A stretch of DNA of 32,000 nucleotides from Promethearchaeum syntrophicum (GCF_008000775.2 NZ_CP042905.2:4110001-4142000), one strand, 5' to 3'; positions 3,741 to 31,635 are shown, numbered from the stretch's first letter. A program made the numbers and translations. Notes: generated by a model from the letters alone, not told the origin.

Positions 3741-5435
3741 CTACAGGTTTTTGATTTTGACAATATTTACTATGGATTTATTCTGTTTTTTAATAATAAT
3801 CGCTGAGATAAGTCCTATTACACCAATTAATAAAACCAAATTATATCCTGAGATCAGTACTGAATCTTTCTTTATAATCTCAAAATAGTTGCTATAATCG
3901 TAGATGGCAGGATTTACTGAATCAGAAATTTTAATTTGATAGAGAGTAGAATTTTCTAAACTGGAAGGTATTGCCCAGGAAAAATAACCATTATTAGATG
4001 CGGTTGCTGCTATTTCCATAACAAATACGTCATTTTCATATAGTTCAATTATTACATTCGAGATACTTCCAATTGATGTCCAAGTTATGGTATAGTTATT
4101 ATTTATTTGCCACGTACTGCTTGAAGTTGGATTGGTCACTGTTAACTCCAATAATTTGTATTTTATTAGGACCATATCACTTCCTCCGGAACCAAAACTA
4201 TCTGTATATCCTGTGATATAAATGTTATTTGAAGGATCAAATTTAATCTCCATTGCAACATCTATTTCACTTCCTCCCCAGGTTGCATTCCATTGCTGCT
4301 CACCTAAGTTGTCATATTTCACAAAAACCATATCCATCTCTCTAGCACCAGAACTGTTTGTTTTTCCCGCAAGATAAATATTATCTGAGGGATTAATAGC
4401 AATTCCTTGTCCCGAATCTTCACCACTTCCACCCCATGTTGCGTTCCACTGTTGAAATCCCGAGCTATTATATTTTATAAGAACTATATCTGATATCATT
4501 GGGTTGAATGGACTAAATAATGGGAAATTTGCAGCTCCCGTAATGTAAACGTTATTTAAAGAGTCCAAACCTATACTATATCCAAGATCATGATTAGCTC
4601 CTCCCCAAGTTGTGTTCCATTGCTGTTCTCCCAAACTATTATATTTAACAAGAACTATATCATTATTTCCAGCACCAAAACTCGTTGTCCAACCCACCAC
4701 ATAAATATTATCAAAGGGATCGACTATAATCTCATTACCCGTATCACTAAGATTCCCACCCCAAGTAGTGTTCCATTGCTGCTCTCCTAAATAATTATAT
4801 TTCACAATGACCATATCCCCACCTTCCGCACCAAAATTCCATGTTCTTCCCGTAAGATAAATATTATTTGAAGAATCTACTGCAATGTTTGAACATATAT
4901 CCGAATTAATTCCTCCCCATGTTGTATTCCATTGCTGTTCTCCCAAATTATTATATTTTACAAGAACCATATCAAAATCCATACTTCCATGTCCAAAACT
5001 CCTTGTCATTCCCCCCAGATAGATATCTTCTGAAGAATCCAATGCAACTGCTAATCCGCTATCCATATCGCTTCCGCCCCAAGTTGTGTTCCATTGTTGT
5101 TCTCCTAAACTGTTATATTTCACAAGAACCATATCTAAATCTCCAGCACCAGAACTATTTGTAAATCCCGAAAGATAAATATTGTTGGATGAATCTAATT
5201 CCATATCTGAAGCCCTATCCCTTCCATTTCCTCCCCATGTTATATTCCACAGTTGTTCAATGGGATAAATTGTAGAATCTTGATACCCTTTGATTGGAGT
5301 ATTTATTCTGTCTTGTTTATAATAGAAATTTGAACTTCCGACTATTAAGAAACTTAGAAATAGAATATAAACTATGCATATTAACATTATATTACTAACT
5401 TTTTTTCGTCTTAGATTTTTGATTTTTTTCTTCAT
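3741..5435 (-). CDS. Membrane-anchored surface protein with SBBP-type beta-propeller repeats
   Basis: 564 aa. N-terminal signal-anchor helix (IMLICIVYILFLSFLIVG). At least 7 repeats of D-(M/I)-V-L-V-K-Y-N-x-L-G-E-Q-Q-W-N-T-T-W-G-G...D-S-S-N-N-I-Y-L-x-G. A Ser/Thr-rich beta-sandwich-like segment follows, then a C-terminal hydrophobic helix plus basic tail (LVLLIGVIGLISAIIIKKQNK). Confidence 0.75.
   Translation of the reverse strand: MKKKIKNLRRKKVSNIMLICIVYILFLSFLIVGSSNFYYKQDRINTPIKGYQDSTIYPIEQLWNITWGGNGRDRASDMELDSSNNIYLSGFTNSSGAGDLDMVLVKYNSLGEQQWNTTWGGSDMDSGLAVALDSSEDIYLGGMTRSFGHGSMDFDMVLVKYNNLGEQQWNTTWGGINSDICSNIAVDSSNNIYLTGRTWNFGAEGGDMVIVKYNYLGEQQWNTTWGGNLSDTGNEIIVDPFDNIYVVGWTTSFGAGNNDIVLVKYNSLGEQQWNTTWGGANHDLGYSIGLDSLNNVYITGAANFPLFSPFNPMISDIVLIKYNSSGFQQWNATWGGSGEDSGQGIAINPSDNIYLAGKTNSSGAREMDMVFVKYDNLGEQQWNATWGGSEIDVAMEIKFDPSNNIYITGYTDSFGSGGSDMVLIKYKLLELTVTNPTSSSTWQINNNYTITWTSIGSISNVIIELYENDVFVMEIAATASNNGYFSWAIPSSLENSTLYQIKISDSVNPAIYDYSNYFEIIKKDSVLISGYNLVLLIGVIGLISAIIIKKQNKSIVNIVKIKNL
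4146..5273 (-). repeat. Tandem coding repeats (period about 154-173 bp) inside the propeller gene
   Basis: The + strand motif ccccaWgtWgtgttccattgctgYtctcc recurs near 4277, 4432, 4605, 4759, 4917, 5078 and 5233. Confidence 0.8.
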
Positions 5436-14285: not shown

Positions 14286-15710
14286 TTATCGAAATGCATC
14301 AAATCGGGGATTTGGATCCAATTTTCTCATCATTTCATCAATTCCTGGTTCTACTCCTTGAAATAATAAGTAGCCCTTATTAGGTTCTCGTGTAATCATT
14401 TCTCCTCGAAGATTGGTTTGCATTAATTTTCTTACTTCATTATAATCTCTTGTATGTCCTAATATCCAAATCATTTTTGCATAAGCTGCACAAGGAATCA
14501 TCGTACCACCTTCAATCACACCCCGTGCTAGCATATCTCTCCCAGTCTCATAAACACGTAAATTTGTACTTCCAAACAGAGGTTCAACAACCATTGCAAT
14601 GGGGATTTCTGCTTCTTTTGCTCGATCTAATGCTGGAAACATATAAGAACTCACGTGTCCTAACCCTGTACCAATCATAATTATTCCATGATAATCTTTA
14701 TCAATTGCAGATTCGAGAATATCGTTATCCATTCCTGGGTAGAAATAGAGAATAGCCACTCGCTCATCCATTTTAGCATCCAACCATGTATCTTCAATTT
14801 TGCCACGTTTTCGAATATCATTTTTCAAGAAATTAATGTTTTGGTTTGCATCTATAGTTCCTAAAGGAATATCACTAATTGTTCTGAAAGCATCACGTCG
14901 ACTGGAATGCATTTTACGAACACGTGTTCCTCGATGAATAAGATTGTATGCATCATTTGAATTTCCATGCATGCAAATAACAACTTCAGCCAGATCAGCA
15001 TAACCTGCAATTTTGCTAGCATTAATAATGTTTAAAGGACCATCACTTGAAGGTCTATCACTTGATCTTTGAGAGCCGACGAAAACTATAGGGGCGGCTA
15101 AATCTTGGAATGCAAATGAAAGAAAAGCTGATGTGAATGACATTGTGTCAGTTCCGTGACCAATTATTACTCCATCTGCTCCACTATCAAATTCTTTCAT
15201 CACTGCTTGGGCAGTTTTTACCCAGAATTCCGGTTTAAAATTCTCTGAGAGGATTCCATAAATTTTTTTGGGGGTTAATTGGCAGATATCCATTAATTCA
15301 GGGACTGCAGAGAATAATTCTTGAGGTGTGAATGCAGGTAAAACAGCTCCAGTTCGATAATCTAACCGAGAAGCTACTGTACCGCCAGTTCCCAAAAGAG
15401 TCACCTTTGGTAAATTCTTATTCATACGCACAGTTACATCAGGAAGTTTATATTCTCCTTTCTTAAACCCAATTTCTTCTATTGAACATTCTTCCGTTAG
15501 ATAAATCCCGATATTATAACCTGTATCAACCTTGATGACTAGATAATTCTCAGAAGTGTTTTCTGATCTGGGGAGAACTACACCTTCATAAATCGCGTTT
15601 CCTTTCTTAACACGGACCATACTCCAAACCCCAATATTCTCTCTTACTAGCCATTCACGTAATGCGCCTTTATAACCAGTTGGGTCTCTTAATTCAGCTT
15701 CATTTGTCAT
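14286..15710 (-). CDS. gatD: Glu-tRNA(Gln) amidotransferase subunit D (asparaginase-like), copy 1
   Basis: Motifs LLGTGGTVASRLDY, GHGTDTM, VGSQRSSDRPSSDG, HRGTRVRKMHSS. ATG 15710 lies 1 nt after the gatE-1 stop and is preceded by GGAGG. The ORF-track start at 15746 would overlap gatE-1. Confidence 0.9.
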   Translation of the reverse strand: MTNEAELRDPTGYKGALREWLVRENIGVWSMVRVKKGNAIYEGVVLPRSENTSENYLVIKVDTGYNIGIYLTEECSIEEIGFKKGEYKLPDVTVRMNKNLPKVTLLGTGGTVASRLDYRTGAVLPAFTPQELFSAVPELMDICQLTPKKIYGILSENFKPEFWVKTAQAVMKEFDSGADGVIIGHGTDTMSFTSAFLSFAFQDLAAPIVFVGSQRSSDRPSSDGPLNIINASKIAGYADLAEVVICMHGNSNDAYNLIHRGTRVRKMHSSRRDAFRTISDIPLGTIDANQNINFLKNDIRKRGKIEDTWLDAKMDERVAILYFYPGMDNDILESAIDKDYHGIIMIGTGLGHVSSYMFPALDRAKEAEIPIAMVVEPLFGSTNLRVYETGRDMLARGVIEGGTMIPCAAYAKMIWILGHTRDYNEVRKLMQTNLRGEMITREPNKGYLLFQGVEPGIDEMMRKLDPNPRFDAFR

Positions 15711-15711
15711 C

Positions 15712-17709
15712 TTATTTATCCTCCAAGTGTTTTCTGACAAATTCATTCATATTTTTTCCAGAATGAGCTCTTTTTATTTTTCTCATCAAGATACCAGTAA
15801 TTTGGTTTATTTTATATTGTTTGTTTAAGTCCACAAACAGTTGCTCTTTTAATTTAATTTTGTTTTTCTTTAGTTGGTTCTTATTATATTCATCCAGAGC
15901 ATCAGTAAACATTTTTTCAAGTTCATTTTCTCCAATTTTTATAATATCTAAATCAGATAAAATCTGTTGGACACTTTTTTCTGAAGATTTAACTTTTTCT
16001 TTTAAGATTTTTGGAATCACACTATTATCGTATAACTCTTGTTGTGCTCCTTTAATTACTTCTTTAATATTTTCAAATGAAATTTTATTTATCTCAATCC
16101 CTTCTCTTTGGAGAGCTTTTAGGGTTTCTTCAAGAATTTTATAGACCAATTTAGGATTAAATCCATTTTCCATTAATTTCTCAAAATCTTTGAGTCGATT
16201 AGTTCTAATAAGCTGTTTTAATTGTTCAAAAGTCAATCCATATTTCTCACAATATTCGTTTTCAATTTCCCACGGTCTTTTTCCAACTTTTTCTTTCAAT
16301 GCATAGACTTTATCCATATCCATATCGATAATTGGGGTATCGGTATCAGGATAGAGGCGATCTTTGCCATGGATTACGCGTAGGAATTCAGAATTCCCAT
16401 CAAGCAATGCTCTTCTAGTTTCTTGGGGGACTCCATTTGGAGCAATCTTTATTCGTTCTATGATCTTTTTCAACCCATGTATACACCATTTTTGGGATCC
16501 AAGAACTAAAGCGTAGGCATCACCATTTTTAACGTTAAGTGCTAATTTTATTTCTTTATCTAGTTCTTTAGTCATATTTGAGAAAAAGAAATTATCTGTA
16601 GCATTTTTATGTTGTTTTCTTAGAGAGTTTAGATTCATTTCATCTGAACTAAACATATTTTTCATTAGAAGTCCAGTAATCAGGGCTGTCTTCTCAAATA
16701 TATCTTGAATAAAATCCTTTTTAGGTTGAATTTCCAAACCCAAAATCCCATCTAACTTAGGTAATCGTATACCCATTACAATAAAATCATCTGGAATTTT
16801 AGCAGCTTTAAACTTATCTGTGAGTTCAAAATACGTATGTTCTACTTCATTAATATCAAAATCTCGATCTTTTAACATTTGTGCAATTTTAATAAGCATA
16901 TCTTGGCGGAGGCATTCATGTGAACACCATTTTTGGAATAATGATAGATCTTGAACTCCTTTTAATTCTACCCTATCTCCTCCCGCTATGCTTATATTAA
17001 CATCTTGTCTTGCAGAACCAATCCCTCTTCTCCCAATACCGCTCAATCTTAAAGTTAATCCAATTATCTCAGCTAATTTTAATAAATCCTTAGGATTATC
17101 ACAATCTCGATGATCCGTAATGACTTCTACTAAAGGTATCCCCAATCGATCTAAATTATAGTATACCGTACGCCCGTAATTTTCTGTTTTAATTCGCCTA
17201 GCTGCATCTTCTTCGATTGTGAGGTTGGTAATCCCCATTTTTTTATCATTAACATAGGTATAACCATCACGAGCCACAATTGTAGTTCGTTGAAACCCGG
17301 TTGTTATAGATCCATCAAGATATTGTTTTCGAGCGAAAATAATTTCATCAACCATAGCAGACATATCAAACCAATGAGCTAATTCATAGCCTTTAAGTAT
17401 TGCTTCTTCATCTGGCCAATATGGTGGCATTTCATCTTGTTCATAAATACAATCCACATCTTCAAACGCATGATAAATACAACGATAACCCTTTTCGTAC
17501 TCTATTAACATTCCAGGATCATAATCCCCCATTTCACCTAATACAGGGCGAAAATAGCGTTCAAATCTATAATCTGGTTCAGTGGTGCTCTTTACCATTT
17601 CGGGTTTACAATTACAAAATAATTTTCTCTTTGTCTTAATCTGATGATGTACTTCAAGCCCCGCATGAAAACCGAGACTTTGATAATCTAATTCTTTTGG
17701 ATCCAGCAT
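15712..17709 (-). CDS. gatE: Glu-tRNA(Gln) amidotransferase subunit E, copy 1
   Basis: Motifs LGFHAGLEVHHQI..KLFCNC, GFQRTTIVA, IEEDAARRIK, RQDVNISI, VELKGVQ, GVPQETRR, RLYPDTDTP, with a C-terminal YqeY-like tail. ATG 17709 (MLDPKELDYQSLG) is preferred over the TTG at 17760. Confidence 0.9.
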   Translation of the reverse strand: MLDPKELDYQSLGFHAGLEVHHQIKTKRKLFCNCKPEMVKSTTEPDYRFERYFRPVLGEMGDYDPGMLIEYEKGYRCIYHAFEDVDCIYEQDEMPPYWPDEEAILKGYELAHWFDMSAMVDEIIFARKQYLDGSITTGFQRTTIVARDGYTYVNDKKMGITNLTIEEDAARRIKTENYGRTVYYNLDRLGIPLVEVITDHRDCDNPKDLLKLAEIIGLTLRLSGIGRRGIGSARQDVNISIAGGDRVELKGVQDLSLFQKWCSHECLRQDMLIKIAQMLKDRDFDINEVEHTYFELTDKFKAAKIPDDFIVMGIRLPKLDGILGLEIQPKKDFIQDIFEKTALITGLLMKNMFSSDEMNLNSLRKQHKNATDNFFFSNMTKELDKEIKLALNVKNGDAYALVLGSQKWCIHGLKKIIERIKIAPNGVPQETRRALLDGNSEFLRVIHGKDRLYPDTDTPIIDMDMDKVYALKEKVGKRPWEIENEYCEKYGLTFEQLKQLIRTNRLKDFEKLMENGFNPKLVYKILEETLKALQREGIEINKISFENIKEVIKGAQQELYDNSVIPKILKEKVKSSEKSVQQILSDLDIIKIGENELEKMFTDALDEYNKNQLKKNKIKLKEQLFVDLNKQYKINQITGILMRKIKRAHSGKNMNEFVRKHLEDK

Positions 17710-17970
17710 ATTTATACCACCATTATATCCTTGAATTTGGTTTTTGATAATGGTATACAACTTTCCTTGATTTGGAAAGTTATTGCTTTTTTAAAAAGTC
17801 GTGGTTTTTTCGTAATTATCAGTATGTGGAAGAAAAAAGATTTTTTTTCGTAACGTTTAGTACAAAAGAGAATATTAATATACTTTGATGATGATAGTTT
17901 AACGACACGTTTATTTCAAATTTAATGGAAGTTTTTACCGAAATAGAACGTGTAAGGTAGGAAATTAAAA

Positions 17971-24308: not shown

Positions 24309-24619
24309 ATTTATCACTAAAATTAATTTTGTATAATTATTCAAAAAAAAATATTACCGTTTTTTATATTAAAGGAATGCAAATAAAAGTCTTATTACAT
24401 TTTATGTATAATTTTGACGTTATGGTTAAGTAAACATATCGGTAAAACGATGACTGTAATAAAAAAGGGTAGTGTAGTTACATATTTTTGATCGGAAGTA
24501 AAACAAACGTGATGAAAAAACTGCATTCAATTTTTTGTAACTGTTTTGAAAATTTTAACAACTTTCAAATATAATTTATATATATTAAAGTAAAGATTTT
24601 GTTAGAAAGGTCGTTTAAA

Positions 24620-26560
24620 TTGAAAACAGATTTTAATTATGAATCACTTGGGCTAAAAATTGGATTGGAAATTCATCAACAACTCGATTCAAAAAAGAAA
24701 CTCTTTTGTAATTGCCCAAATGAATTACAGGGAACTCGGGCACCTGATTTTACTATTTTAAGAAAACAGAGACCAGTTTTGGGGGAAGAAGGAAAATTCG
24801 ATAAGGGAATGCTGGTAGAATTTTTAAAAAAAGGATCAATAGTCTACGAGGGATATTATGATTGTACGTGCACATATGAGTTGGATGAGACCCCACCGTT
24901 CCATTATGATGAAGAATGCTTAGATATTACTTTGGAAATCTGTGCACTCTTCAAAATGGAGATAATTCGGGAAGCGCATGTATGCCGAAAAAACTATGTA
25001 GATGGTAGTGTTCCCGCGGGATTTCAAAGAACTATGGAAATTGGACAAAATGGAAAGCTTCTCTTAAAAACTGGAAAAGAAATTGGAATTGAAAACATTT
25101 TTCTTGAAGAAGATGCAGCGCGAAGGATTAAAACTGAGGGAAAAACATCATACTTTCGAGTTGATCGTCTTGGGGTTCCGTTAAATGAAATCACCACAGC
25201 ACCAGAAATTCATACCCCAGAAGAGGCAAAAGATGCTGCCTATCGTATAGGATTATTATTGCGGTCTGCAAATAAAGTTAAACGTGTGATTGGTTCTACT
25301 CGTCAGGATATTAATATTTCAATAAAAGGAGGAGAAAGGATAGAGATAAAAGGTGTTCAAAAATTGGATTGGATACCCTTATTAGTAAATTTTGAATGTC
25401 AACGTCAGTTATCCTTAATTGAAATTAAGAAAAATCTTAAAAAAAAGAATTTAAAATCGAGTGTTATTAAAAAAGAGACAAAAGATTTATCGAAATTTTT
25501 CAAAAATACTCCATGTAGGTTTGTTAAGAAAGGAATAAAAAATGGGCAGAAACTAATAGCGATGAAAATACCTGGATTTAAGGGAATATATGGAAAAGAA
25601 TTAAATCCAAAAAGGCGATTTGGTACGGAAGTGGCAGAAAAAATAAAAATTCTTACAGGATTACAAGGTTTGATTCATTCTGATGAAGATTTACAAGGGA
25701 AATATAAATTTACTGAAAAAGAAATTAAGAAAATTAAAGCAGAATTGAAAATTGAAGAAAATGATCTTTTTATTTTACTATTAGCAAAAGGAAGACCACT
25801 AGATGATGCATTAGATATTATTATCGAGAGAACTAAACAAGCATTCAACGGAGTTCCGGAAGAAACTCGACGAGCGCAAGATGATGGTACTCATATATTT
25901 TTAAGGGAGCTTGGTGGTGGAAAACGGTTATATCCTGATACAGACACTCAGTCATTTATAATATCTGAAGAGAGAATTCAAAAAATAAACCAATCTATTG
26001 GTGCTTATCCATGGGATATTATTGATGAATATTCGAAAAAATATAAATTATCAGGGGAACTCTTTGAAAATCTAATAATGACGGGAAAGCTACAATTATT
26101 TGATAAATTAATAAAAATTTTACCTGATAATCCTACTTTAGTCATTAGAACAATTACAGATATGCTCAAAGTCCTACACCGAGAAAATAGAAATATAAAA
26201 CAATTAACAGAAAAACATTTTTCAACCCTTCTTAAAGGACTTAAAAAGGGAGTAATTGCCAAAGAAGCTCTCGAATCAATTTTACGAATTTGGATAGATT
26301 TTCCCGAATTAACGCTAGAAAAGGCTAAGAAAAAAGCGGGAATCACAAGTTTTGATCTTAAAAATCTGGATGAAATTATTCAAGATATTATTGATAAAAA
26401 TATTGATTTAATAAAAACACGCGGAAAGGGTGCAACAGGACCATTAATGGGAGATGTAATGAAAAAAATAGGGCGAGGGGTTGTAGATGGTAAAATTTTA
26501 TCCTCTAAACTACAAGAATTAATGATTCCTTATCTTACTAATAAAAAAGGAGGCAAATAG
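24620..26560 (+). CDS. gatE: Glu-tRNA(Gln) amidotransferase subunit E, copy 2
   Basis: Motifs LGLKIGLEIHQQL..KLFCNC, GFQRTMEIG, LEEDAARRIK, RQDINISI, IEIKGVQ, GVPEETRR, RLYPDTDTQ. No in-frame ATG lies upstream of the conserved core, so the start must be TTG at 24620 (AGGT 8 nt upstream; N-terminal length matches copy 1) or TTG at 24599 as in the ORF track. Confidence 0.9.
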   Translation: MKTDFNYESLGLKIGLEIHQQLDSKKKLFCNCPNELQGTRAPDFTILRKQRPVLGEEGKFDKGMLVEFLKKGSIVYEGYYDCTCTYELDETPPFHYDEECLDITLEICALFKMEIIREAHVCRKNYVDGSVPAGFQRTMEIGQNGKLLLKTGKEIGIENIFLEEDAARRIKTEGKTSYFRVDRLGVPLNEITTAPEIHTPEEAKDAAYRIGLLLRSANKVKRVIGSTRQDINISIKGGERIEIKGVQKLDWIPLLVNFECQRQLSLIEIKKNLKKKNLKSSVIKKETKDLSKFFKNTPCRFVKKGIKNGQKLIAMKIPGFKGIYGKELNPKRRFGTEVAEKIKILTGLQGLIHSDEDLQGKYKFTEKEIKKIKAELKIEENDLFILLLAKGRPLDDALDIIIERTKQAFNGVPEETRRAQDDGTHIFLRELGGGKRLYPDTDTQSFIISEERIQKINQSIGAYPWDIIDEYSKKYKLSGELFENLIMTGKLQLFDKLIKILPDNPTLVIRTITDMLKVLHRENRNIKQLTEKHFSTLLKGLKKGVIAKEALESILRIWIDFPELTLEKAKKKAGITSFDLKNLDEIIQDIIDKNIDLIKTRGKGATGPLMGDVMKKIGRGVVDGKILSSKLQELMIPYLTNKKGGK

Positions 26561-26562
26561 AT

Positions 26563-27954
26563 ATGAGTAATTCAACAAAAAATGAGTTTGAAGGATATAA
26601 ACCGCAATCTATTAAAATTTTGAAGAAATTTGGCGCAAAAACTTGGAGTAAAATTCGAATAAAAACGAAATCAAATACAATTCCATCAGAAGGAATTATT
26701 TTACCACGAAATCAGTTTGCTCCAGATGGATTCGTGGAAATTAAACTTAAAAACGGCTATAACATCGGAATCCCTTTGGATTCGACTACAGAAATTGAAG
26801 TATTAAGTCAAGAGCCTAAAATGGAAGTTAAATTTGATCCTACCAAAATATCCAAAAATAAGAAATTACCCAATATTGCATTATTAGGAACTGGAGGAAC
26901 AATTTCTTCAAGATTAGATTATGTAACTGGGGCTGTTATTCCAGCGTTTGAACCATCTGAACTATATACAGCTGTTCCAGAATTAGCAAATGTTTGTAAT
27001 CTTGAAACCGATGTTGTGTTTAAAATTTTCTCTGAAAATATGAAACCGAAATATTGGTTGAAATTAGCAAAAAATATTGCTAAAAAAGTTAATGCGGGTG
27101 TCGATGGTATAATGATTGCACATGGAACAGATACACTTGCTTATTCATCTGCAGCACTATCATTTCTATTAAGCGATTTAAAAGTTCCAGTAGTTCTTGT
27201 TGGTTCCCAGAGGTCAAGTGACCGACCATCTTCGGATGCAGCGATGAATTTATTAAATGCAGCTACAGTAGCCGGAAACGCGGATTTAGCGGAAGTTGTA
27301 GTTAGCATGTTAGGATCATCGGCTCATGATTATGGATTAATTCATCGTGGAACTCGCGTTCGAAAAATGCATTCCTCGACCAGGCATGCTTTTCGTTCAA
27401 TTGATTCTTCACCATTGGGTATGGTTCGTGATGGAGAGATTAAATTCTTTACAGAAGATATAAAAAGAAGACCTAATAACGATATTGAAACAACTGCTGC
27501 AAAAAATATTGAAGAGAAGATTGGATTAATTTATGGATACCCTGGAATATCTTGTGAATTAATTGATTTTTATGTAGATAAAGGATATAAGGGTCTTGTT
27601 TTAGCAGGTACTGGATTGGGTCATTTTCCAAATGATACTTTCAACTCTCTTAAACGCGCAGTGGATGAAGAAATTCCTGTAGTGATGACCGTTCAAACAA
27701 TCTGGGGTTATACTGGAATGGATGTTTACGAACCTGGAAGGAAAATGCAAGCTATTGGTGTGATACCAGGACAGAATATGATTCCAGAAGTCGCTTTTGC
27801 AAAATTATCGTGGATATTGGGGAATTATGATAACCCAGTAGAGATTAAAAAATTAATTACAACTGATATTGCCGGTGAAATTACAGCAAGAGAACCTATG
27901 AATGGATATCAGATCCTTCAAGGAGTGGAAGATCAGATAAACTTTTTAAAATAG
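26563..27954 (+). CDS. gatD: Glu-tRNA(Gln) amidotransferase subunit D, copy 2
   Basis: Motifs LLGTGGTISSRLDY, AHGTDTL, VGSQRSSDRPSSDA, HRGTRVRKMHSS. The ATG lies 2 nt after the gatE-2 stop, with GGAGG embedded in the gatE-2 3' end. Confidence 0.9.
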   Translation: MSNSTKNEFEGYKPQSIKILKKFGAKTWSKIRIKTKSNTIPSEGIILPRNQFAPDGFVEIKLKNGYNIGIPLDSTTEIEVLSQEPKMEVKFDPTKISKNKKLPNIALLGTGGTISSRLDYVTGAVIPAFEPSELYTAVPELANVCNLETDVVFKIFSENMKPKYWLKLAKNIAKKVNAGVDGIMIAHGTDTLAYSSAALSFLLSDLKVPVVLVGSQRSSDRPSSDAAMNLLNAATVAGNADLAEVVVSMLGSSAHDYGLIHRGTRVRKMHSSTRHAFRSIDSSPLGMVRDGEIKFFTEDIKRRPNNDIETTAAKNIEEKIGLIYGYPGISCELIDFYVDKGYKGLVLAGTGLGHFPNDTFNSLKRAVDEEIPVVMTVQTIWGYTGMDVYEPGRKMQAIGVIPGQNMIPEVAFAKLSWILGNYDNPVEIKKLITTDIAGEITAREPMNGYQILQGVEDQINFLK

Positions 27955-28245: not shown

Positions 28246-29511
28246 TTAAGATTCAACCTCATTATTTTGATCTTCTATTTCGTTCTGATCTTGCTCTTCT
28301 CTCTGTTCTTTCTCTTCTAACTCATCGGTTTTTTCTTTCTTTCCTTTCAGTTTCCCAACTTTACTATGAATTTTTTTAACGATTTTTAGATCTTGAATAT
28401 GAAAGGATGGTTCCTGAGTTTTTTGTGCCTTTATTTCTTTTTTTTCTATTTTGTTTTTTTCTTTCTCATCTTGTTTAATTAGAAGTTTTTTAGCTTTTTC
28501 TTTTGCAAGCTCGGATTGAAATTGTTTTTTATCTGCTTTCAATTCATGTCGCTCAGCGCGTAGCTCAGATTTTCTTTGGTATTTATCCCCTTTAATACGC
28601 CTAATCTCAGCTTTTTCAAGAGATTTTAATGCACCCAAATCTTTTTTAGCACTTTTATGAATTAAATGAACAACTCTTCGACCTTTTAGTTCAATATCAT
28701 CAGGAAATGCCTCAACAATTTCTTTATACCCCTTAACTTTGGCTCTTTCTTCTGAGGTTAGCTCGTCTTTCTCACGGAATTTATTTTCTCGATATTTTTG
28801 GGCAGGACTGCCCATATACACCCATCCACTTTCAAGTTCTTGGGATATTTGGGTCGTTGAAAGAGCCCCTAAGATAACATTATCTTGCACGATAGTTCCT
28901 GGTGCGATTACGCAATGCCCCCCAATTAAACTATTTTTACCAATTTTTACTTTCTTTATTATTAGAAATTCAGTTGTAATCATCGATGTCATGATCACCG
29001 CCCCTTGCCCTACAACAGTCCCCCTCCCTATTTCTAAGAATTCAGCATCTACCCATGCATCATAAATAGGAGTCGAAAATTTTACTTGGTTTCCGAACAC
29101 TTTAAAAGCCAATACATCGGCCCATGGAACGGGAAAATTATGACAAATCCATATTGGGTATTTTTTAATAACAGATCTTTTAATCCAAGCCCTATAATCC
29201 TTATTTTTCATTGTTTTCGGAAAAACTCCTTCTTTGGGAAAATGAAAAAAATTGACAATTCTTAGAGCTACCCACGAAAAAAACAAGGCAGACAACATGT
29301 ACAGCAAATAAACGACTAGAATTATTATAGGAAAAGTTATGAACAAAATCCAATTGAAATCCATGATAGAAATTAAGAATAATATTAAGAAGAAATCGGG
29401 AATAATTGAAAGCCAGATTAATAAGATATAAATAAATAAATACCTCGTTGCGGGAAGTGAATTAGTTGTAGTAGGCCCAACTTTTAAACTTGCGGGAATT
29501 ATGCTTGACAT
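28246..29511 (-). CDS. Membrane-anchored left-handed beta-helix (hexapeptide-repeat) protein with long Lys/Glu-rich C-terminal tail
   Basis: 421 aa with about 3 N-terminal TM helices. Hexapeptide region IGRGTVVGQGAVIM...VKIGKNSLIGGHCVIAPGTIVQDNVILGALS...WVYMGSPAQ, followed by about 170 aa of charged, coiled-coil-like sequence. Confidence 0.7.
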   Translation of the reverse strand: MSSIIPASLKVGPTTTNSLPATRYLFIYILLIWLSIIPDFFLILFLISIMDFNWILFITFPIIILVVYLLYMLSALFFSWVALRIVNFFHFPKEGVFPKTMKNKDYRAWIKRSVIKKYPIWICHNFPVPWADVLAFKVFGNQVKFSTPIYDAWVDAEFLEIGRGTVVGQGAVIMTSMITTEFLIIKKVKIGKNSLIGGHCVIAPGTIVQDNVILGALSTTQISQELESGWVYMGSPAQKYRENKFREKDELTSEERAKVKGYKEIVEAFPDDIELKGRRVVHLIHKSAKKDLGALKSLEKAEIRRIKGDKYQRKSELRAERHELKADKKQFQSELAKEKAKKLLIKQDEKEKNKIEKKEIKAQKTQEPSFHIQDLKIVKKIHSKVGKLKGKKEKTDELEEKEQREEQDQNEIEDQNNEVES

Positions 29512-29540: not shown

Positions 29541-30419
29541 TTAATTATCTTGAGTTATCCTATAGGCTTTTTTCTTGTTTTTAGTTTCATAAACCAGATC
29601 TTTCTTATCATCTGGAATTTGTATCATTTTCAAATAACGTTTTGTAGATAACCTACTGATAGGTAATCCAAAATATTTCGCAAATCCCTTAATTTTAGAA
29701 AATTTGATCACACCACTCATCGGGAGAAATTCTGTGTATGGTTCCATATAAGTCCCAGGGGCAATAGCATTATGGGCACCAACAACCGAGTTATCCCCAA
29801 GATACACCTTTTTCAGTGTGATTGCCCCATATTTACCCTCTACAGTATGACTAGTAACACCAGAGGCTTGCCCGATATACACATTTTTCCCTGTTTCTAT
29901 ATATTCTTTACAAAAAACATGATCCTCCATTGTTGTTCCTTTTCCAATTTTACAATCTCCTACGAAATTTAATGCCCAATTCATTAACCAAGGAAAAGCA
30001 CTCTTTACAATTGACCAAACTACAATTCTAAGAATAACTCCTCGTAGATGATATGCGTTAACTACACGAGCTTCTTCCTTTCCAATTCCTTTTGCAGACA
30101 CTAATTCTTTCTTGGGAGAAATTAAATTGATTAATGAGATTGAAATTTTACCTAGGATTGCTAAAGAGAATATACGAAAAACATATAAAAATATGGCAAA
30201 TAATGGTGTTAAAACTGAAATTAGAACATATTTCCAACTCGTGAATATTAAAAAGAAATCAAGAAATATGTGTTGTAAAGGAAAAATGCAGATCTTGTAA
30301 TAATAATAACCCATAATTATCGAAGGAACCCAAGAATACCCCCACACAAATAAAATAACAAAAATATACTTCTCCATTTCAATTTTTGCACTTGGAGGAA
30401 TACGTGGATCTCTCTTCAT
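29541..30419 (-). CDS. Membrane-anchored left-handed beta-helix (hexapeptide-repeat) protein, paralogue-like neighbour
   Basis: 292 aa with about 4 N-terminal TM helices. Hexapeptide region VGDCKIGKGTTMEDHVF...VYIGQASGVTSHTV...VYLGDNSVVGAHNAIAPGTYM. Same architecture as 28246..29511, and only a 29-nt gap. Confidence 0.7.
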   Translation of the reverse strand: MKRDPRIPPSAKIEMEKYIFVILFVWGYSWVPSIIMGYYYYKICIFPLQHIFLDFFLIFTSWKYVLISVLTPLFAIFLYVFRIFSLAILGKISISLINLISPKKELVSAKGIGKEEARVVNAYHLRGVILRIVVWSIVKSAFPWLMNWALNFVGDCKIGKGTTMEDHVFCKEYIETGKNVYIGQASGVTSHTVEGKYGAITLKKVYLGDNSVVGAHNAIAPGTYMEPYTEFLPMSGVIKFSKIKGFAKYFGLPISRLSTKRYLKMIQIPDDKKDLVYETKNKKKAYRITQDN

Positions 30420-30479: not shown

Positions 30480-30923
30480 TTAATCTGAAACCGCTTTTCG
30501 TTTTGAAAAGAGGGTCTTCAACTCATCCATTATTGATCCACGTAGGGATACAGGCCCTGCTGGAGCCCCCCCTTTTGGAGGAGGTGCTCTTCCAGGAGGT
30601 GGTGGTGGTGCTCCAGGAGGTGGTGACCCAGGTGGCGGTGGTGGTGCTCCGGGACCAGATGCTACTGCTGGAACAGCTAAATTTGCTCCTGCTGCAGCGG
30701 CAACTCTAGATTCTACTTGCACTATTCGACCCTCCATTGCTTTTAATCGACCATCGAGACCATTAATTTGATTTGATAGTACTTGGATACTTTGATCTAC
30801 CATCTCCGGAATCCTTAACGTGATTGTCATAATCTTCTCGATTACATCGCCCAATCCTTCGACTCGCTCTTTCAATGGTGCTTCACTGTAGCTATTCATT
30901 ACGGAAAAGAATTCTTCAGCCAT
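30480..30923 (-). CDS. Coiled-coil / polyproline / WH2-like C-terminal motif protein
   Basis: 147 aa from ATG 30923 (the ORF track uses TTG 30968). No TM or signal peptide. Coiled-coil-like QSIQVLSNQINGLDGRLKAMEGRIVQVESRV, then GPGAPPPPPGSPPPGAPPPPPGRAPPPKGGAPAGP, then SLRGSIMDELKTLFSKRKAV. Confidence 0.65.
   Translation of the reverse strand: MAEEFFSVMNSYSEAPLKERVEGLGDVIEKIMTITLRIPEMVDQSIQVLSNQINGLDGRLKAMEGRIVQVESRVAAAAGANLAVPAVASGPGAPPPPPGSPPPGAPPPPPGRAPPPKGGAPAGPVSLRGSIMDELKTLFSKRKAVSD
30555..30656 (-). repeat. Low-complexity GC-rich Pro/Gly codon tract
   Basis: The + strand shows reiterated ggtggtggtgctccRgga units. This is a local GC spike caused by CCN/GGN codons. Confidence 0.8.
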
Positions 30924-31017
30924 TTTAATTCGACCTAAAAATATTAAATTCAATTTACTGGTAAGCAAATTGATTATTATGTAGTACTATTGGTAAAACG
31001 ATCTTAAATAATTTTAT

Positions 31018-31635
31018 TTAAAACTCCAGAAATCCAGTGTCACCCAAAATTTCCTCAATTTTTGCCCGTCTTTTGGGTTTTTCACTAACCTTACTTTCCC
31101 CTTCATCGTATGGATTATCTTCGTTTTCTTCATATATGTTTTCGAGAGTGGCATCTTCAATAAGACCAGAATCTAGTTGTTCTTGGAGTCTTTTTCCATT
31201 TTCAACGTATTTGGCTGCAGTCGCTTTCCACATCTCTGCTTGTTCCAAATCTTTTGGGTCTTTATTTTTTTGATATTCTTCAAGAGCTTTTGTGGAATTA
31301 ACATTTGCATTATCAGCTAAAAATGAATAGACTAAGGTTAATTCAGTAAATTGTTTCTTTTCCCAAAGTTTTTCTTCACGAGATGTGAGTCTAGCATATT
31401 CTTGGTCTTTATAATATATATCAATGAAATCTCCAAATGCATCAACGGGTTCTGTGAGGTCATTCTTGGAAACTTTCTGAGATACACCACAATGTCCGCA
31501 AATTACTTCGACATCTTCTTCTTTTGAAGTTACTTTCGCTTTGACTGTCTTGTGTCCGCATTTTGGGCAGGTAAAGATCTTGGGAAGTGATCTTACTCTT
31601 CTATAAACAATTTTTTTTCTTTTGCGTCGACCCAC
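31018..31635 (-). CDS. elf1: Elf1-type transcription elongation factor zinc-ribbon protein with long C-terminal extension
   Basis: GTG start. MGRRKRKK basic N-terminus, then FTCPKCGH...VICGHCG...LTEPVDAFGDFIDIYY, matching the Elf1 pattern (basic tail, C4 ribbon, L-x-E/x-P-I/V-D). About 130 extra C-terminal residues are acidic and helical. Confidence 0.75.
   Translation of the reverse strand: MGRRKRKKIVYRRVRSLPKIFTCPKCGHKTVKAKVTSKEEDVEVICGHCGVSQKVSKNDLTEPVDAFGDFIDIYYKDQEYARLTSREEKLWEKKQFTELTLVYSFLADNANVNSTKALEEYQKNKDPKDLEQAEMWKATAAKYVENGKRLQEQLDSGLIEDATLENIYEENEDNPYDEGESKVSEKPKRRAKIEEILGDTGFLEF

What the first reader, a model, noticed from the sequence alone, without database searches (positions are those of the whole stretch)
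30480..30923. Archaeal protein with coiled coil, polyproline tract and WH2-like tail, the domain order of eukaryotic actin-assembly factors
The ORF has no signal peptide or TM segment. It encodes a coiled-coil-like N-terminal half and an Ala-rich linker. Three proline runs follow (GAPPPPPG, SPPPG, APPPPPG, then RAPPPKGG). Directly after these comes a short amphipathic helix plus basic patch at the extreme C-terminus (SLRGSIMDELKTLFSKRKAV). In eukaryotes, a polyproline tract that recruits profilin-actin, followed directly by a WH2-type helix plus LKKV-like basic motif, characterises WASP/WAVE/WIP/VASP-type regulators and resembles formin FH1 logic. The helix aligns plausibly with WH2 (IMDEL against LLxxI; KRKAV against LKKTV), but the canonical Leu of LKKV is not clearly conserved. 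The neighbouring gene is Elf1, another eukaryote-like factor, which fits a lineage that may also encode actin and profilin homologues. I do not know of a described archaeal polyPro+WH2 nucleation or elongation factor.
Basis: partly seen in the sequence, partly recalled or inferred. Interest (0 to 1): 0.78.

Follow-up and report, generated by a model that had tools for sequence, protein, structure and literature searches.

The report
Asgard coiled-coil, polyproline, VASP-like tail protein
This small gene belongs to an unnamed protein family found across Asgard archaea; it joins a pairing helix, proline tracts and a very conserved end helix, which makes it the best candidate so far for a missing archaeal actin-assembly factor, though nothing here shows that it binds actin.

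Summary
Window 30480-30923 (-) encodes a 147-aa protein with a helical N-module and heptad coiled coil (res 1-80), an Ala/Pro linker with APPPPPG tracts, and a C-terminal helix. It belongs to an unannotated family found in at least 116 Asgard species genomes, including Lokiarchaeum ossiferum.

The tail (SLRGSIMDELKxLFxKR[RK]) is the most conserved part. It fails as a canonical WH2: Pfam gives no hit and the LKKV leucine position is an invariant Lys. It resembles the Ena/VASP F-actin-binding block better, but about 1 in 4,000 background windows score as well.

Context adds three things:
- In 74 of 85 loci the upstream gene encodes a 207-aa protein whose model matches BAR domains, arfaptin best.
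- The whole module is also fused to Arf-like GTPases.
- The N-module also occurs fused to gelsolin (actin-binding) domains in GTPase-linked genes.

Elf1 adjacency is a lineage-specific rearrangement.

My best reading is an oligomeric adaptor linked to membranes and GTPases that delivers or tethers actin, loosely like Ena/VASP or MIM (confidence about 0.4). No binding was tested. The probable L. ossiferum orthologue is abundant but absent from the held part of a Lokiactin co-IP list.

The parts
30480..30923 (-). Complete ORF, 147 aa plus stop. It is a member of an unannotated pan-Asgard family.
   Evidence: ORF listing and sequence. 38 homologues at 28-90% identity, named only 'hypothetical protein'. 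116 species genomes.
30684..30923 (-). N-module, residues 1-80. It comprises the conserved MAEEF N-terminus, a short helix (2-13) and a long helix (17-80) with invariant E29 and P39. A heptad coiled coil spans about 42-77, with a/d = V,I,L,I,L,L,M,I,V,V,A.
   Evidence: AF2 pLDDT 85-98 over residues 1-70. Heptad register. Invariant columns. The same module occurs C-terminal to Arf-like GTPases and fused to gelsolin domains.
30549..30683 (-). Predicted disordered Ala/Gly/Pro-rich linker, residues 81-125.
   Evidence: pLDDT <50 for 81-96 and 99-121. Across the family the linker has a median length of 50 aa, is 36% Pro and ranges from 7 to 86 aa.
30576..30647 (-). Polyproline tracts, residues 93-116: APPPPPG-SPPPG-APPPPPG-RAPPP. 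These are the XPPPPP-type motifs that bind profilin in eukaryotes (my own knowledge).
   Evidence: Sequence. P94-P98, G99 and P106 are invariant or nearly so. 116 of 166 stand-alone family members have a run of 5 or more Pro; 15 have none.
30483..30554 (-). C-terminal tail, residues 124-147: P-V-S-L-R-G-S-I-M-D-E-L-K-T-L-F-S-K-R-K-A-V-S-D. It is a predicted helix (127-146) and the most conserved element of the family. I take it as a candidate partner-binding (actin-binding) motif.
   Evidence: Invariant P124, L127, I131, M132, E134, L135, K136, L138, K141. Helix at pLDDT about 92. The motif is conserved in the GTPase-fusion paralogues. hhalign to Ena/VASP FAB gives prob 73%, with 0 of 200 shuffles as good. 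PSSM score is 9.9 bits, per-window p about 2.5e-4.
30938..30949 (-). Possible archaeal TATA-like box (TTTAATATTTTT), about 19-26 nt upstream of the ATG. It suggests the gene has its own promoter rather than depending on Elf1.
   Evidence: Read directly from the sequence. This is inference only and was not tested.

Best explanation
The protein is a small oligomeric adaptor of the Asgard actin and membrane system.

Its parts would work as follows:
- The N-module, a helical segment plus four to five heptads of coiled coil, pairs or bundles chains. Each particle then carries two or more flexible arms.
- Each arm has XPPPPP tracts that could capture profilin (or profilin-actin) or another proline-binding partner.
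- Each arm ends in a conserved amphipathic, basic helix. That helix would bind actin as the Ena/VASP F-actin-binding block, or the helix half of WH2, does.

This would tether filaments or feed subunits to their ends.

In most Asgard genomes the gene sits directly behind a BAR-like (arfaptin-like) gene. The same module also ends Arf-like GTPases. I therefore infer that the activity is placed at curved membranes and switched by small GTPases, comparable in logic to MIM/IRSp53 (I-BAR, Pro-rich region, WH2) or Ena/VASP.

Shown here: the architecture, its conservation, its distribution, the synteny and the domain fusions. Inferred: oligomerisation, actin and profilin binding, and the link to the BAR protein.
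For: 1. The tail is the most conserved segment across Loki-, Thor-, Hermod-, Odin- and Hod-labelled genomes, and it recurs in about 100 Arf-like GTPase fusion clusters. That fits a highly conserved partner.
2. 79% of stand-alone members carry a run of 4 or more Pro just upstream of the tail.
3. The tail profile aligns over 14 columns with the Ena/VASP FAB, IMDELKTLFSKRKA against [14 protein letters not shown]. hhalign gives prob 73% and no column shuffle out of 200 reaches the score. The human FAB sequence was verified in PMC10340426. EVL FAB was the best non-family hit in a 309,000-residue background.
4. Fusion evidence: P0137 and P0410, from two independent samples, join the N-module to gelsolin-homology domains. 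The N-module matches family members at E about 1e-22. The gelsolin domain matches Loki 2DGel 7whg at E = 9e-11 and human gelsolin at 1.7e-5. These genes lie within or next to small-GTPase genes.
5. The upstream neighbour is conserved in 74 of 85 loci at about 130 nt spacing. Its model has three long helices at pLDDT 84.6. Its top PDB matches are arfaptin, SNX-BAR, endophilin, IRSp53 and MIM (TM up to 0.68).
6. All named sources are Asgard, apart from one probably mis-binned contig. This is the only prokaryotic group with a regulated actin, profilin and gelsolin system.
7. The probable L. ossiferum orthologue, GNAMCCOK_02219, is detected in the proteome at mean log2 intensity 18.47, listed in part 6 of about 25 parts of the abundance-sorted Proteome sheet.
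Against: - No actin or profilin binding was tested, and no co-fold could be run.
- No Pfam WH2 or VASP hit in any of 32 members, and no PDB hit with the tail profile.
- The FAB resemblance is weak statistically. HMMER gives 5.6 bits. 66 of 266,918 background windows score at least as well as human VASP FAB. I also picked the comparison after seeing the sequence.
- Polyproline is absent from 71 of 97 GTPase-fusion tails and from 9% of stand-alone members, so Pro tracts are not essential to the tail's function.
- Loki and Odin profilins were reported not to bind polyproline, and Heimdall and Thor profilins bind only weakly.
- GNAMCCOK_02219 does not appear in the held part of the Lokiactin co-IP table. 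That table is truncated and the identifier mapping is inferred.
- No actin, profilin or gelsolin gene lies in the window or in the conserved neighbourhood.
Confidence: 0.4

Rival explanations
1. A GTPase/BAR-linked membrane-trafficking adaptor with no direct actin role. The N-module joins a small-GTPase or BAR complex. The conserved tail binds some other conserved Asgard protein, for example the BAR-like neighbour, a GTPase regulator, or a longin/roadblock protein. The proline linker is only a spacer.
For: The module is fused to Arf-like and Ras-like GTPases. A BAR-like neighbour is conserved. Most GTPase-fusion tails lack polyproline. Longin/roadblock-like weak hits occur nearby in some loci. 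The probable orthologue was not seen in the held part of the actin co-IP list.
Against: This does not explain the gelsolin-domain fusions. It also does not explain why 70% of stand-alone members keep runs of 5 or more Pro of the profilin-binding type. No alternative partner has been identified.
Confidence: 0.3
2. The C-terminal helix is a membrane-targeting amphipathic helix, like the tails of MinD or FtsA. It would anchor a coiled-coil protein, and the GTPase fusions, to the membrane.
For: The position is at or near the extreme C-terminus after a flexible linker. The helix has a hydrophobic face plus a basic cluster, with core 11-mer hydrophobic moment 0.55 and net charge +2. The context is membrane-related: a BAR-like neighbour and Arf-like GTPases.
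Against: Membrane-targeting helices are usually conserved in character, not in sequence (my knowledge). Here Glu134, Lys136 and Lys141 are invariant and position 133 is usually acidic. In P0147 the motif is internal, followed by a zinc ribbon and LRR. The hydrophobic moment does not separate it from WH2 or FAB helices.
Confidence: 0.13
3. The tail is a structural element that folds back onto the N-module, within one chain or across a dimer, to form a helical bundle. The protein would then be a passive scaffold of unknown role.
For: The tail helix has high AF2 confidence (about 92) although it lies beyond a 40-residue disordered linker. Both ends of the protein are conserved.
Against: The N-module exists without the tail in the gelsolin fusions. 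It also tolerates other domains following the tail. Model coordinates and PAE could not be inspected, so no contact was actually shown.
Confidence: 0.08
4. A transcription-linked factor working with Elf1, or an ESCRT client whose tail is a MIT-interacting motif.
For: Elf1 lies 95 nt upstream on the same strand in the window and in L. ossiferum. Elf1 is present within 6 kb in 68 of 85 loci. The tail is a C-terminal helix, as MIM1 motifs are.
Against: In most loci Elf1 is on the opposite strand and convergent. The target appears to have its own TATA-like box. The MIM1 consensus (D/E)xxLxxRLxxL(K/R), recalled from my own knowledge, does not fit in any register by inspection. A CHMP2A tail scored about 0 bits against the tail HMM.
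Confidence: 0.04

Closest known systems
Ena/VASP EVH2 region (polyPro, G-actin-binding site GAB, F-actin-binding site FAB, tetramerising coiled coil)
   Same: (G/A)PPPPP tracts are followed by a short basic helix that aligns position by position with the FAB, [LI]M[ED]E[ML].x[ML][LF][AS][RK]R[RK]. Both also have an oligomerising coiled coil. The inferred logic is the same: several flexible arms per particle.
   Different: There is no EVH1 domain and no GAB/KLRK site. The coiled coil is N-terminal instead of C-terminal. The whole protein is only 147 aa. Pfam finds no match. Sequence similarity is within the range of chance for K/E-rich proteins.
WH2-domain proteins with adjacent proline-rich regions (WASP/WAVE VCA, WIP, thymosin-beta-4 type)
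   Same: A polyproline tract is followed by an amphipathic helix. RGSIMDEL aligns with RGALLDQI. A basic patch follows the helix. Some family members add an acidic tail (poly-Asp) or a Trp (AWENE), which recalls the C-A region.
   Different: The LKK[TV] motif is missing, and an invariant Lys sits at the Leu position. hhalign gives 3% probability, with 10 of 200 shuffles as good. No Pfam WH2 hit and no PDB WH2 chain is recovered.
MIM/ABBA and IRSp53 (I-BAR domain, Pro/Ser-rich region, C-terminal WH2)
   Same: A BAR-fold protein combined with a Pro-rich segment ending in a short actin-binding-type helix at the extreme C-terminus. IRSp53 and MIM I-BAR domains are among the structural matches of the neighbour gene's product.
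   Different: Here the two halves are separate adjacent genes, and that neighbour is not in this window. The best structural match is arfaptin, a classical BAR, not an I-BAR. No interaction between the two proteins has been shown.
Asgard gelsolin-family regulators (ProGel, 1DGelX, 2DGel)
   Same: Same organisms. The family's N-module is found fused to gelsolin-homology domains. 1DGelX likewise pairs an actin-binding domain with a predicted coiled-coil 'domain X' that was proposed to bind filament sides.
   Different: The window protein has no gelsolin domain. No homology between domain X and this N-module was demonstrated.

Membership tests
WH2 domain (Pfam PF02205) | Significant match to the family profile | tested here: not met
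   No WH2 hit for the window protein at E<=1. WH2 is not among the families matched by the 32 members at E<=10. The tail profile finds no WH2-containing PDB chain at E<=10.
WH2 domain (Pfam PF02205) | N-terminal amphipathic helix with an LLxxI-type hydrophobic pattern | tested here: inconclusive
   IMDEL aligns with LLDQI in hhalign, but at 3% probability, and 10 of 200 column shuffles score as well.
WH2 domain (Pfam PF02205) | LKK[TV] motif with a conserved Leu a few residues after the helix | tested here: not met
   The family consensus after the helix is LFxKR[RK]. The position equivalent to the Leu is the invariant K141.
WH2 domain (Pfam PF02205) | [quoted passage not shown] | not testable with these tools
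   No complex prediction or binding assay was available.
Ena/VASP | N-terminal EVH1 (WH1) domain | tested here: not met
   No Pfam WH1 hit. The N-terminus is an all-helical module.
Ena/VASP | Central (G/A)PPPPP profilin-binding repeats | tested here: met
   GAPPPPPG and GAPPPPPG lie in residues 92-111. 116 of 166 family members have a run of 5 or more Pro. Binding to profilin was not tested.
Ena/VASP | FAB block ([17 protein letters not shown]) | tested here: inconclusive
   hhalign gives prob 73% and score 17.8, with 0 of 200 shuffles as good. The PSSM score is 9.9 bits; 4 of 5000 shuffles reach it, but so do 66 of 266,918 background windows. HMMER gives only 5.6 bits for EVL.
Ena/VASP | C-terminal tetramerisation coiled coil (VASP_tetra) | tested here: not met
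   No Pfam hit. The coiled coil here is N-terminal. The oligomeric state is unknown.
Formin (FH1-FH2) | FH2 domain following the proline-rich FH1 | tested here: not met
   No FH2 hit was found. Only 31 residues follow the last Pro tract.
WASP-family VCA | C helix followed by an acidic region with a conserved Trp | tested here: not met
   hhalign to the WASP C helix gives 2.5% probability. Poly-Asp tails or a Trp occur only in subsets of the family, and the window protein ends in KAVSD.
ESCRT-III MIM1 motif | (D/E)xxLxxRLxxL(K/R) at the C-terminus | tested here: not met
   No register of the tail fits the consensus, by inspection of the alignment. The consensus is from my own knowledge. A CHMP2A tail scores about 0 bits against the tail HMM.
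MinD/FtsA-type membrane-targeting sequence | C-terminal amphipathic basic helix, conserved in character rather than in sequence | tested here: inconclusive
   The core 11-mer is amphipathic (moment 0.55). However, sequence conservation is unusually strict and includes an invariant Glu. Lipid binding is not testable here.
BAR domain (applies to the conserved neighbour cc207, not to the window ORF) | Three long antiparallel helices with structural similarity to solved BAR domains | tested here: met
   The AF2 model has helices 7-72, 79-149 and 154-206 at pLDDT 84.6. The Foldseek top hits are arfaptin 1i49 and 4dcn (TM 0.60-0.68, prob 1.0, E about 0.01), followed by SNX-BAR, endophilin, IRSp53 and MIM. 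One of eight members scanned gave a sub-threshold Pfam FCH hit at 5.7e-4. Dimerisation and membrane binding were not tested.

The most novel reading that the evidence does not exclude
Asgard archaea already possess a dedicated actin-assembly or tethering factor built on the eukaryotic principle: an oligomer, profilin-recruiting polyproline and a short actin-binding helix. It would operate with a BAR-domain protein and be duplicated onto Arf-like GTPases. If so, GTPase-switched, membrane-coupled actin polymerisation predates eukaryotes, and the Ena/VASP FAB or WH2-type helix has an archaeal antecedent or a striking convergent twin.
Probability: 0.3. Interest if true: 0.92.

Novelty: new variant of a known kind. 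Interest (0 to 1): 0.74.

Why it matters
The papers I read name only profilins and gelsolins as Asgard actin regulators. They state that polyproline-bearing nucleation or elongation machinery has not been found. That leaves open what Asgard profilin-actin is delivered to, and how the actin-filled protrusions of Lokiarchaeum are built at the membrane.

This family is small, soluble and present in cultured L. ossiferum, where it is apparently well expressed. It has clear, separable parts, so the question can be tested directly with peptides and recombinant protein.

The BAR-like neighbour, the Arf-like GTPase fusions and the gelsolin fusions give a concrete set of partners to test. If the tail turns out to bind something other than actin, the result is still a new, very conserved Asgard interaction motif attached to small GTPases.

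Tried and rejected
- **Pfam and PDB searches on the target.** Pfam scans of the protein and of 32 family members gave only sub-threshold coiled-coil or proline noise: PARG_cat_N, Baculo_PEP_C, DEC-1_N, Mito_fiss_reg, BLOC1_2, HSBP1. PDB sequence searches with the protein and the tail profile found nothing meaningful. A gelsolin-Cobl-thymosin hybrid chain at E = 0.25 was not examined further, because its alignment was not among the three printed.
- **Fold search of the target model.** Nothing was found, as expected for one long helix plus disorder.
- **Window gene content.** I looked for actin, profilin or gelsolin genes in the window and found none.
- **Published Lokiactin co-IP table.** I tried to find the L. 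ossiferum orthologue there. I mapped it tentatively to GNAMCCOK_02219, because its neighbour Elf1 matches GNAMCCOK_02218 by mass (24.01 against 24.03 kDa). It is in the proteome sheet but not in the held part of the co-IP sheet.
- **The co-IP 'Arf GTPase'.** I tried to test whether this 38.1 kDa protein is one of the module fusions, but could not obtain its sequence.
- **Exact-sequence look-up.** Both the window protein and the L. ossiferum protein failed this look-up.
- **GTPase-fusion neighbourhoods.** No cytoskeletal genes were present.
- **Rejected readings.** The antisense ORF 30503-30709 (+) is a by-product of the Pro codons. The longer TTG start at 30968 is unlikely. An operon with Elf1 is not the general case.

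Full report
**Observation.** The minus-strand ORF 30480-30923 encodes 147 residues.
- No hydrophobic segment is long enough for a membrane span. The maximum Kyte-Doolittle 19-residue mean is 1.16, in the Ala-rich stretch.
- The N-terminal half is helical. The AlphaFold2 model built on a 32-sequence alignment gives helices 2-13 and 17-80 at pLDDT 85-98. Residues 81-121 are disordered, and a confident C-terminal helix spans 127-146.
- Positions a/d of a heptad register from V42 to A77 are all hydrophobic.
- Residues 85-125 hold 20 prolines in 41 positions, in a window of about 31% GC.
- The longer TTG reading frame to 30968 is unlikely to be used, because nearly all homologues begin at MAEEF/MADEF.
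- An AT-rich TATA-like element lies about 19-26 nt upstream of the ATG (inference only).

**Family and distribution.**
- A word-indexed search found 38 proteins of 120-162 aa at 28-90% identity. The only names are 'hypothetical protein' from Promethearchaeota and Hodarchaeota MAGs, and none has a Pfam domain.
- A profile search of 1.84 billion cluster representatives gave 404 hits at E<=1e-3.
- A scan of one genome per species found relatives in 116 genomes. These include Promethearchaeum sp. (82-85% identity, the closest), Lokiarchaeum ossiferum B35, Harpocratesius, and MAGs labelled Hermod-, Thor-, Odin- and Hodarchaeota.
- One contig is labelled as a Nanopelagicaceae bacterium MAG and is probably mis-binned.
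- Invariant columns concentrate in the tail: P124, L127, I131, M132, E134, L135, K136, L138 and K141. The consensus is P-V-S-L-R-G-S-I-M-[DG]-E-L-K-x-L-F-x-K-R-[RK].
- Of 166 unique stand-alone members that carry the tail, 116 have a run of at least five prolines, 131 a run of at least four, and 15 no PPP. The linker varies from 7 to 86 residues.

**Is the tail a WH2?** By the tests I could run, it is not.
- No member hits Pfam WH2.
- A profile of the tail finds no WH2, WASP, thymosin, Cobl or Spire chain in the PDB at E<=10.
10 of 200 column shuffles score as well.
- The position of the hallmark Leu of LKKV is the invariant Lys141.

**Resemblance to the Ena/VASP FAB.** While reading the alignment I noticed a closer, position-by-position resemblance to the F-actin-binding block of Ena/VASP: IMDELKTLFSKRKA against [14 protein letters not shown].
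- The human sequence 259[20 protein letters not shown]278 was verified in PMC10340426. The EVL and Mena sequences are from memory.
- hhalign gives 73% probability and a score of 17.8, which none of 200 shuffles reached.
- EVL's block was the best non-family hit of a tail HMM in a 309,000-residue background.
- The absolute scores are small, however. HMMER gives 5.6 bits. A softened PSSM gives 9.9 bits for human VASP; 4 of 5000 shuffles match that, but so do 66 of 266,918 windows from neighbouring Asgard ORFs.
- I also chose this comparison after seeing the sequence. It is therefore a lead, not evidence of homology.

**Genomic context.**
- In the window, Elf1 (Pfam 7e-18) ends 95 nt upstream on the same strand. 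Two membrane-anchored hexapeptide-repeat proteins follow downstream. L. ossiferum and a close JGI relative share this order.
- Across 85 loci this order is the exception: 7 loci have Elf1 upstream and co-directional. In 74 loci the gene directly upstream and co-directional is a roughly 207-aa protein, at a strikingly constant spacing of about 130 nt.
- That pair sits inside a larger conserved block. Upstream lie a nucleotidyltransferase, two radical-SAM proteins, a GNAT and Pelota. Downstream lie a convergent Elf1 and then several unknown proteins.
- The 207-aa protein has 533 database clusters, all 'hypothetical'.
- Its AF2 model (pLDDT 84.6) has three long helices. Its top Foldseek matches in the PDB are almost all BAR domains. 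Arfaptin, alone and with ARL1 or Rac1, is best (TM 0.60-0.68, probability 1.0, E about 0.01). SNX-BAR, endophilin, FAM92A, IRSp53 and MIM follow. One of eight members scanned also gave a sub-threshold FCH hit.
- A preprint on L. ossiferum lists a 24.7 kDa 'Bar1' that was detected but not significant in a Lokiactin co-IP. The size fits this protein, but I could not verify identity.

**Domain fusions.** The profile search revealed that the module is mobile.
- Proteins of about 405-430 aa carry an N-terminal region (one member has a weak Pfam HHH_5 hit), then an Arf/RagA-like GTPase (Pfam Arf 1e-19 to 1e-24). They end in the whole module: helical segment, coiled coil, linker and tail.
- This fusion family has about 100 clusters from Loki-, Thor- and Odin-labelled MAGs. 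It keeps the tail ([AS]R..[VI][LM].ELK[DE]LF.K[KR]) but mostly lacks polyproline; 71 of 97 have no PPP.
- Other variants exist. One places the tail internally before a zinc ribbon and LRR domain. Another links a Ras-like GTPase to the N-module.
- The most telling variant is P0137 (266 aa). It joins the N-module to a gelsolin-homology domain. The N-module matches family members at E about 1e-22. The gelsolin domain matches Lokiarchaeota 2DGel 7whg at E = 9e-11, Thor 2DGel3 at 5e-6 and human gelsolin at 1.7e-5.
- P0137's gene overlaps the end of a small-GTPase gene.
- A second sample encodes the same arrangement as one 560-aa chain: Ras-like GTPase, gelsolin domain, N-module, gelsolin domain, zinc ribbon.
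- In these proteins a proven actin-binding fold occupies the position that the polyproline-plus-tail arm has in the window protein. The N-module also functions without the tail, which argues against the tail being merely part of the N-module's fold.

**Literature and proteomics.**
[quoted passage not shown] I found no paper describing this family.
- In the L. ossiferum data set, GNAMCCOK_02218 has the mass of the Elf1 neighbour (24.01 against a calculated 24.03 kDa). The target is therefore probably GNAMCCOK_02219.
- That entry is in the proteome sheet at mean log2 18.47, listed in part 6 of about 25 parts of that abundance-sorted sheet. It does not occur in the held, truncated part of the Lokiactin co-IP sheet. 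This is a weak negative, given the inferred mapping and the low affinities typical of such motifs.
- The co-IP did enrich an 'Arf GTPase' of 38.1 kDa, too large for a plain Arf. I could not obtain its sequence.

**Interpretation.** I commit to the following reading at about 40% confidence.
- The protein is an oligomeric adaptor of the Asgard actin and membrane system.
- Its flexible arms present proline tracts and a terminal actin-binding helix.
- It works beside a BAR-like protein and has paralogues on Arf-like GTPases.
- In logic it resembles Ena/VASP or MIM/IRSp53, but it is not a member of those families.

The main rival, at about 30%, keeps the GTPase and BAR context but gives the tail a non-actin partner. 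A membrane-targeting helix (about 13%) and a fold-back structural role (about 8%) are less likely. The reasons are the strict conservation of charged residues, the internal position of the motif in one variant, and the tail-less gelsolin fusions. An Elf1- or ESCRT-linked role is unlikely.

**Limits.** The following were not available or not done:
- No complex prediction, binding data or model coordinates.
- Clade labels of MAGs are as deposited.
- The source genome of the window itself was not identified.

Noticed in passing
not in the window; e.g. L006:9251-9874, L058:5229-5864 (P0290): A roughly 207-aa, very conserved (about 80% identity across many MAGs) hypothetical protein lies directly upstream of the target in 74 of 85 loci. 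Its model is a three-helix BAR-like fold, closest to arfaptin. It may correspond to the 24.7 kDa 'Bar1' of L. ossiferum.
   Followed up: yes
P0099, P0185-P0278 (e.g. L088:8001-9278, L089:4812-9287): A family of 405-430-aa Arf/RagA-like GTPases ends in the same coiled-coil module and tail. In one locus (L089) three paralogues lie in tandem. Two of the three loci examined have TFIIB and PAP2 genes nearby; the third has inositol-phosphate synthase and kinase genes nearby.
   Followed up: partly
L091:3762-4562 (P0137) and P0410: The family's N-module occurs fused to gelsolin-homology domains and a zinc ribbon. In one sample this forms a single 560-aa chain that begins with a Ras-like GTPase. This is a multi-domain GTPase-gelsolin architecture that I did not find described in the papers read.
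   Followed up: partly
window 31018-31635 (-): Elf1 is 205 aa, but only residues 2-75 match the Elf1 zinc ribbon. The rest is a long acidic extension ending in GFLEF, and L. ossiferum shares this ending. The protein of matching mass in L. ossiferum (GNAMCCOK_02218) is mildly enriched in the Lokiactin co-IP (log2 1.36, adjusted p 0.034).
   Followed up: partly
window 14286-17760 (-) and 24599-27954 (+): There are two GatD/GatE-like gene pairs in one 32-kb window. The GatE-like protein of the first pair (15712-17760) matches only GatB_N and lacks the GAD and GatB_Yqey hits of the second, so it looks like a diverged paralogue pair.
   Followed up: no
window 28246-29511 (-) and 29541-30419 (-): Two paralogous hexapeptide-repeat (left-handed beta-helix) proteins with hydrophobic, probably membrane-embedded N-terminal regions lie directly downstream of the target. 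The first has a long Lys/Glu-rich C-terminal tail. The pair is syntenic in L. ossiferum and a close relative.
   Followed up: no
window 30503-30709 (+): This 68-aa antisense ORF, rich in Val, Leu and Gln, is a mirror image of the proline codons and is not a gene.
   Followed up: yes
family alignment A1; P0009, P0010, P0014-P0016, L010:6001-6459; P0020, P0022, P0024, P0026, P0034: Subsets of the family extend the tail with poly-Asp (up to 11 Asp) or end in ...RRAWENE. These acidic or Trp-containing endings recall the acidic region of WASP-family VCA. The window protein lacks them.
   Followed up: no
L016-L087, both sides of the target: A conserved Asgard block surrounds the gene. Upstream lie NTP-transferase, radical SAM, GNAT, Pelota and radical SAM genes. 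Downstream, beyond Elf1, lie unknown 366-aa, zinc-ribbon 322-aa and 379-aa proteins, plus an AAA ATPase in some loci.
   Followed up: no
L066 (DATKTW010000134.1): A contig carrying this Asgard-specific gene and its neighbours is deposited in a MAG labelled as a Nanopelagicaceae bacterium. This is probably a binning error.
   Followed up: no
window 3741-5435 (-): A 564-aa protein with SBBP beta-propeller repeats and a Kre9/KNH-like Ig domain lies in a stretch with strongly negative GC skew.
   Followed up: no
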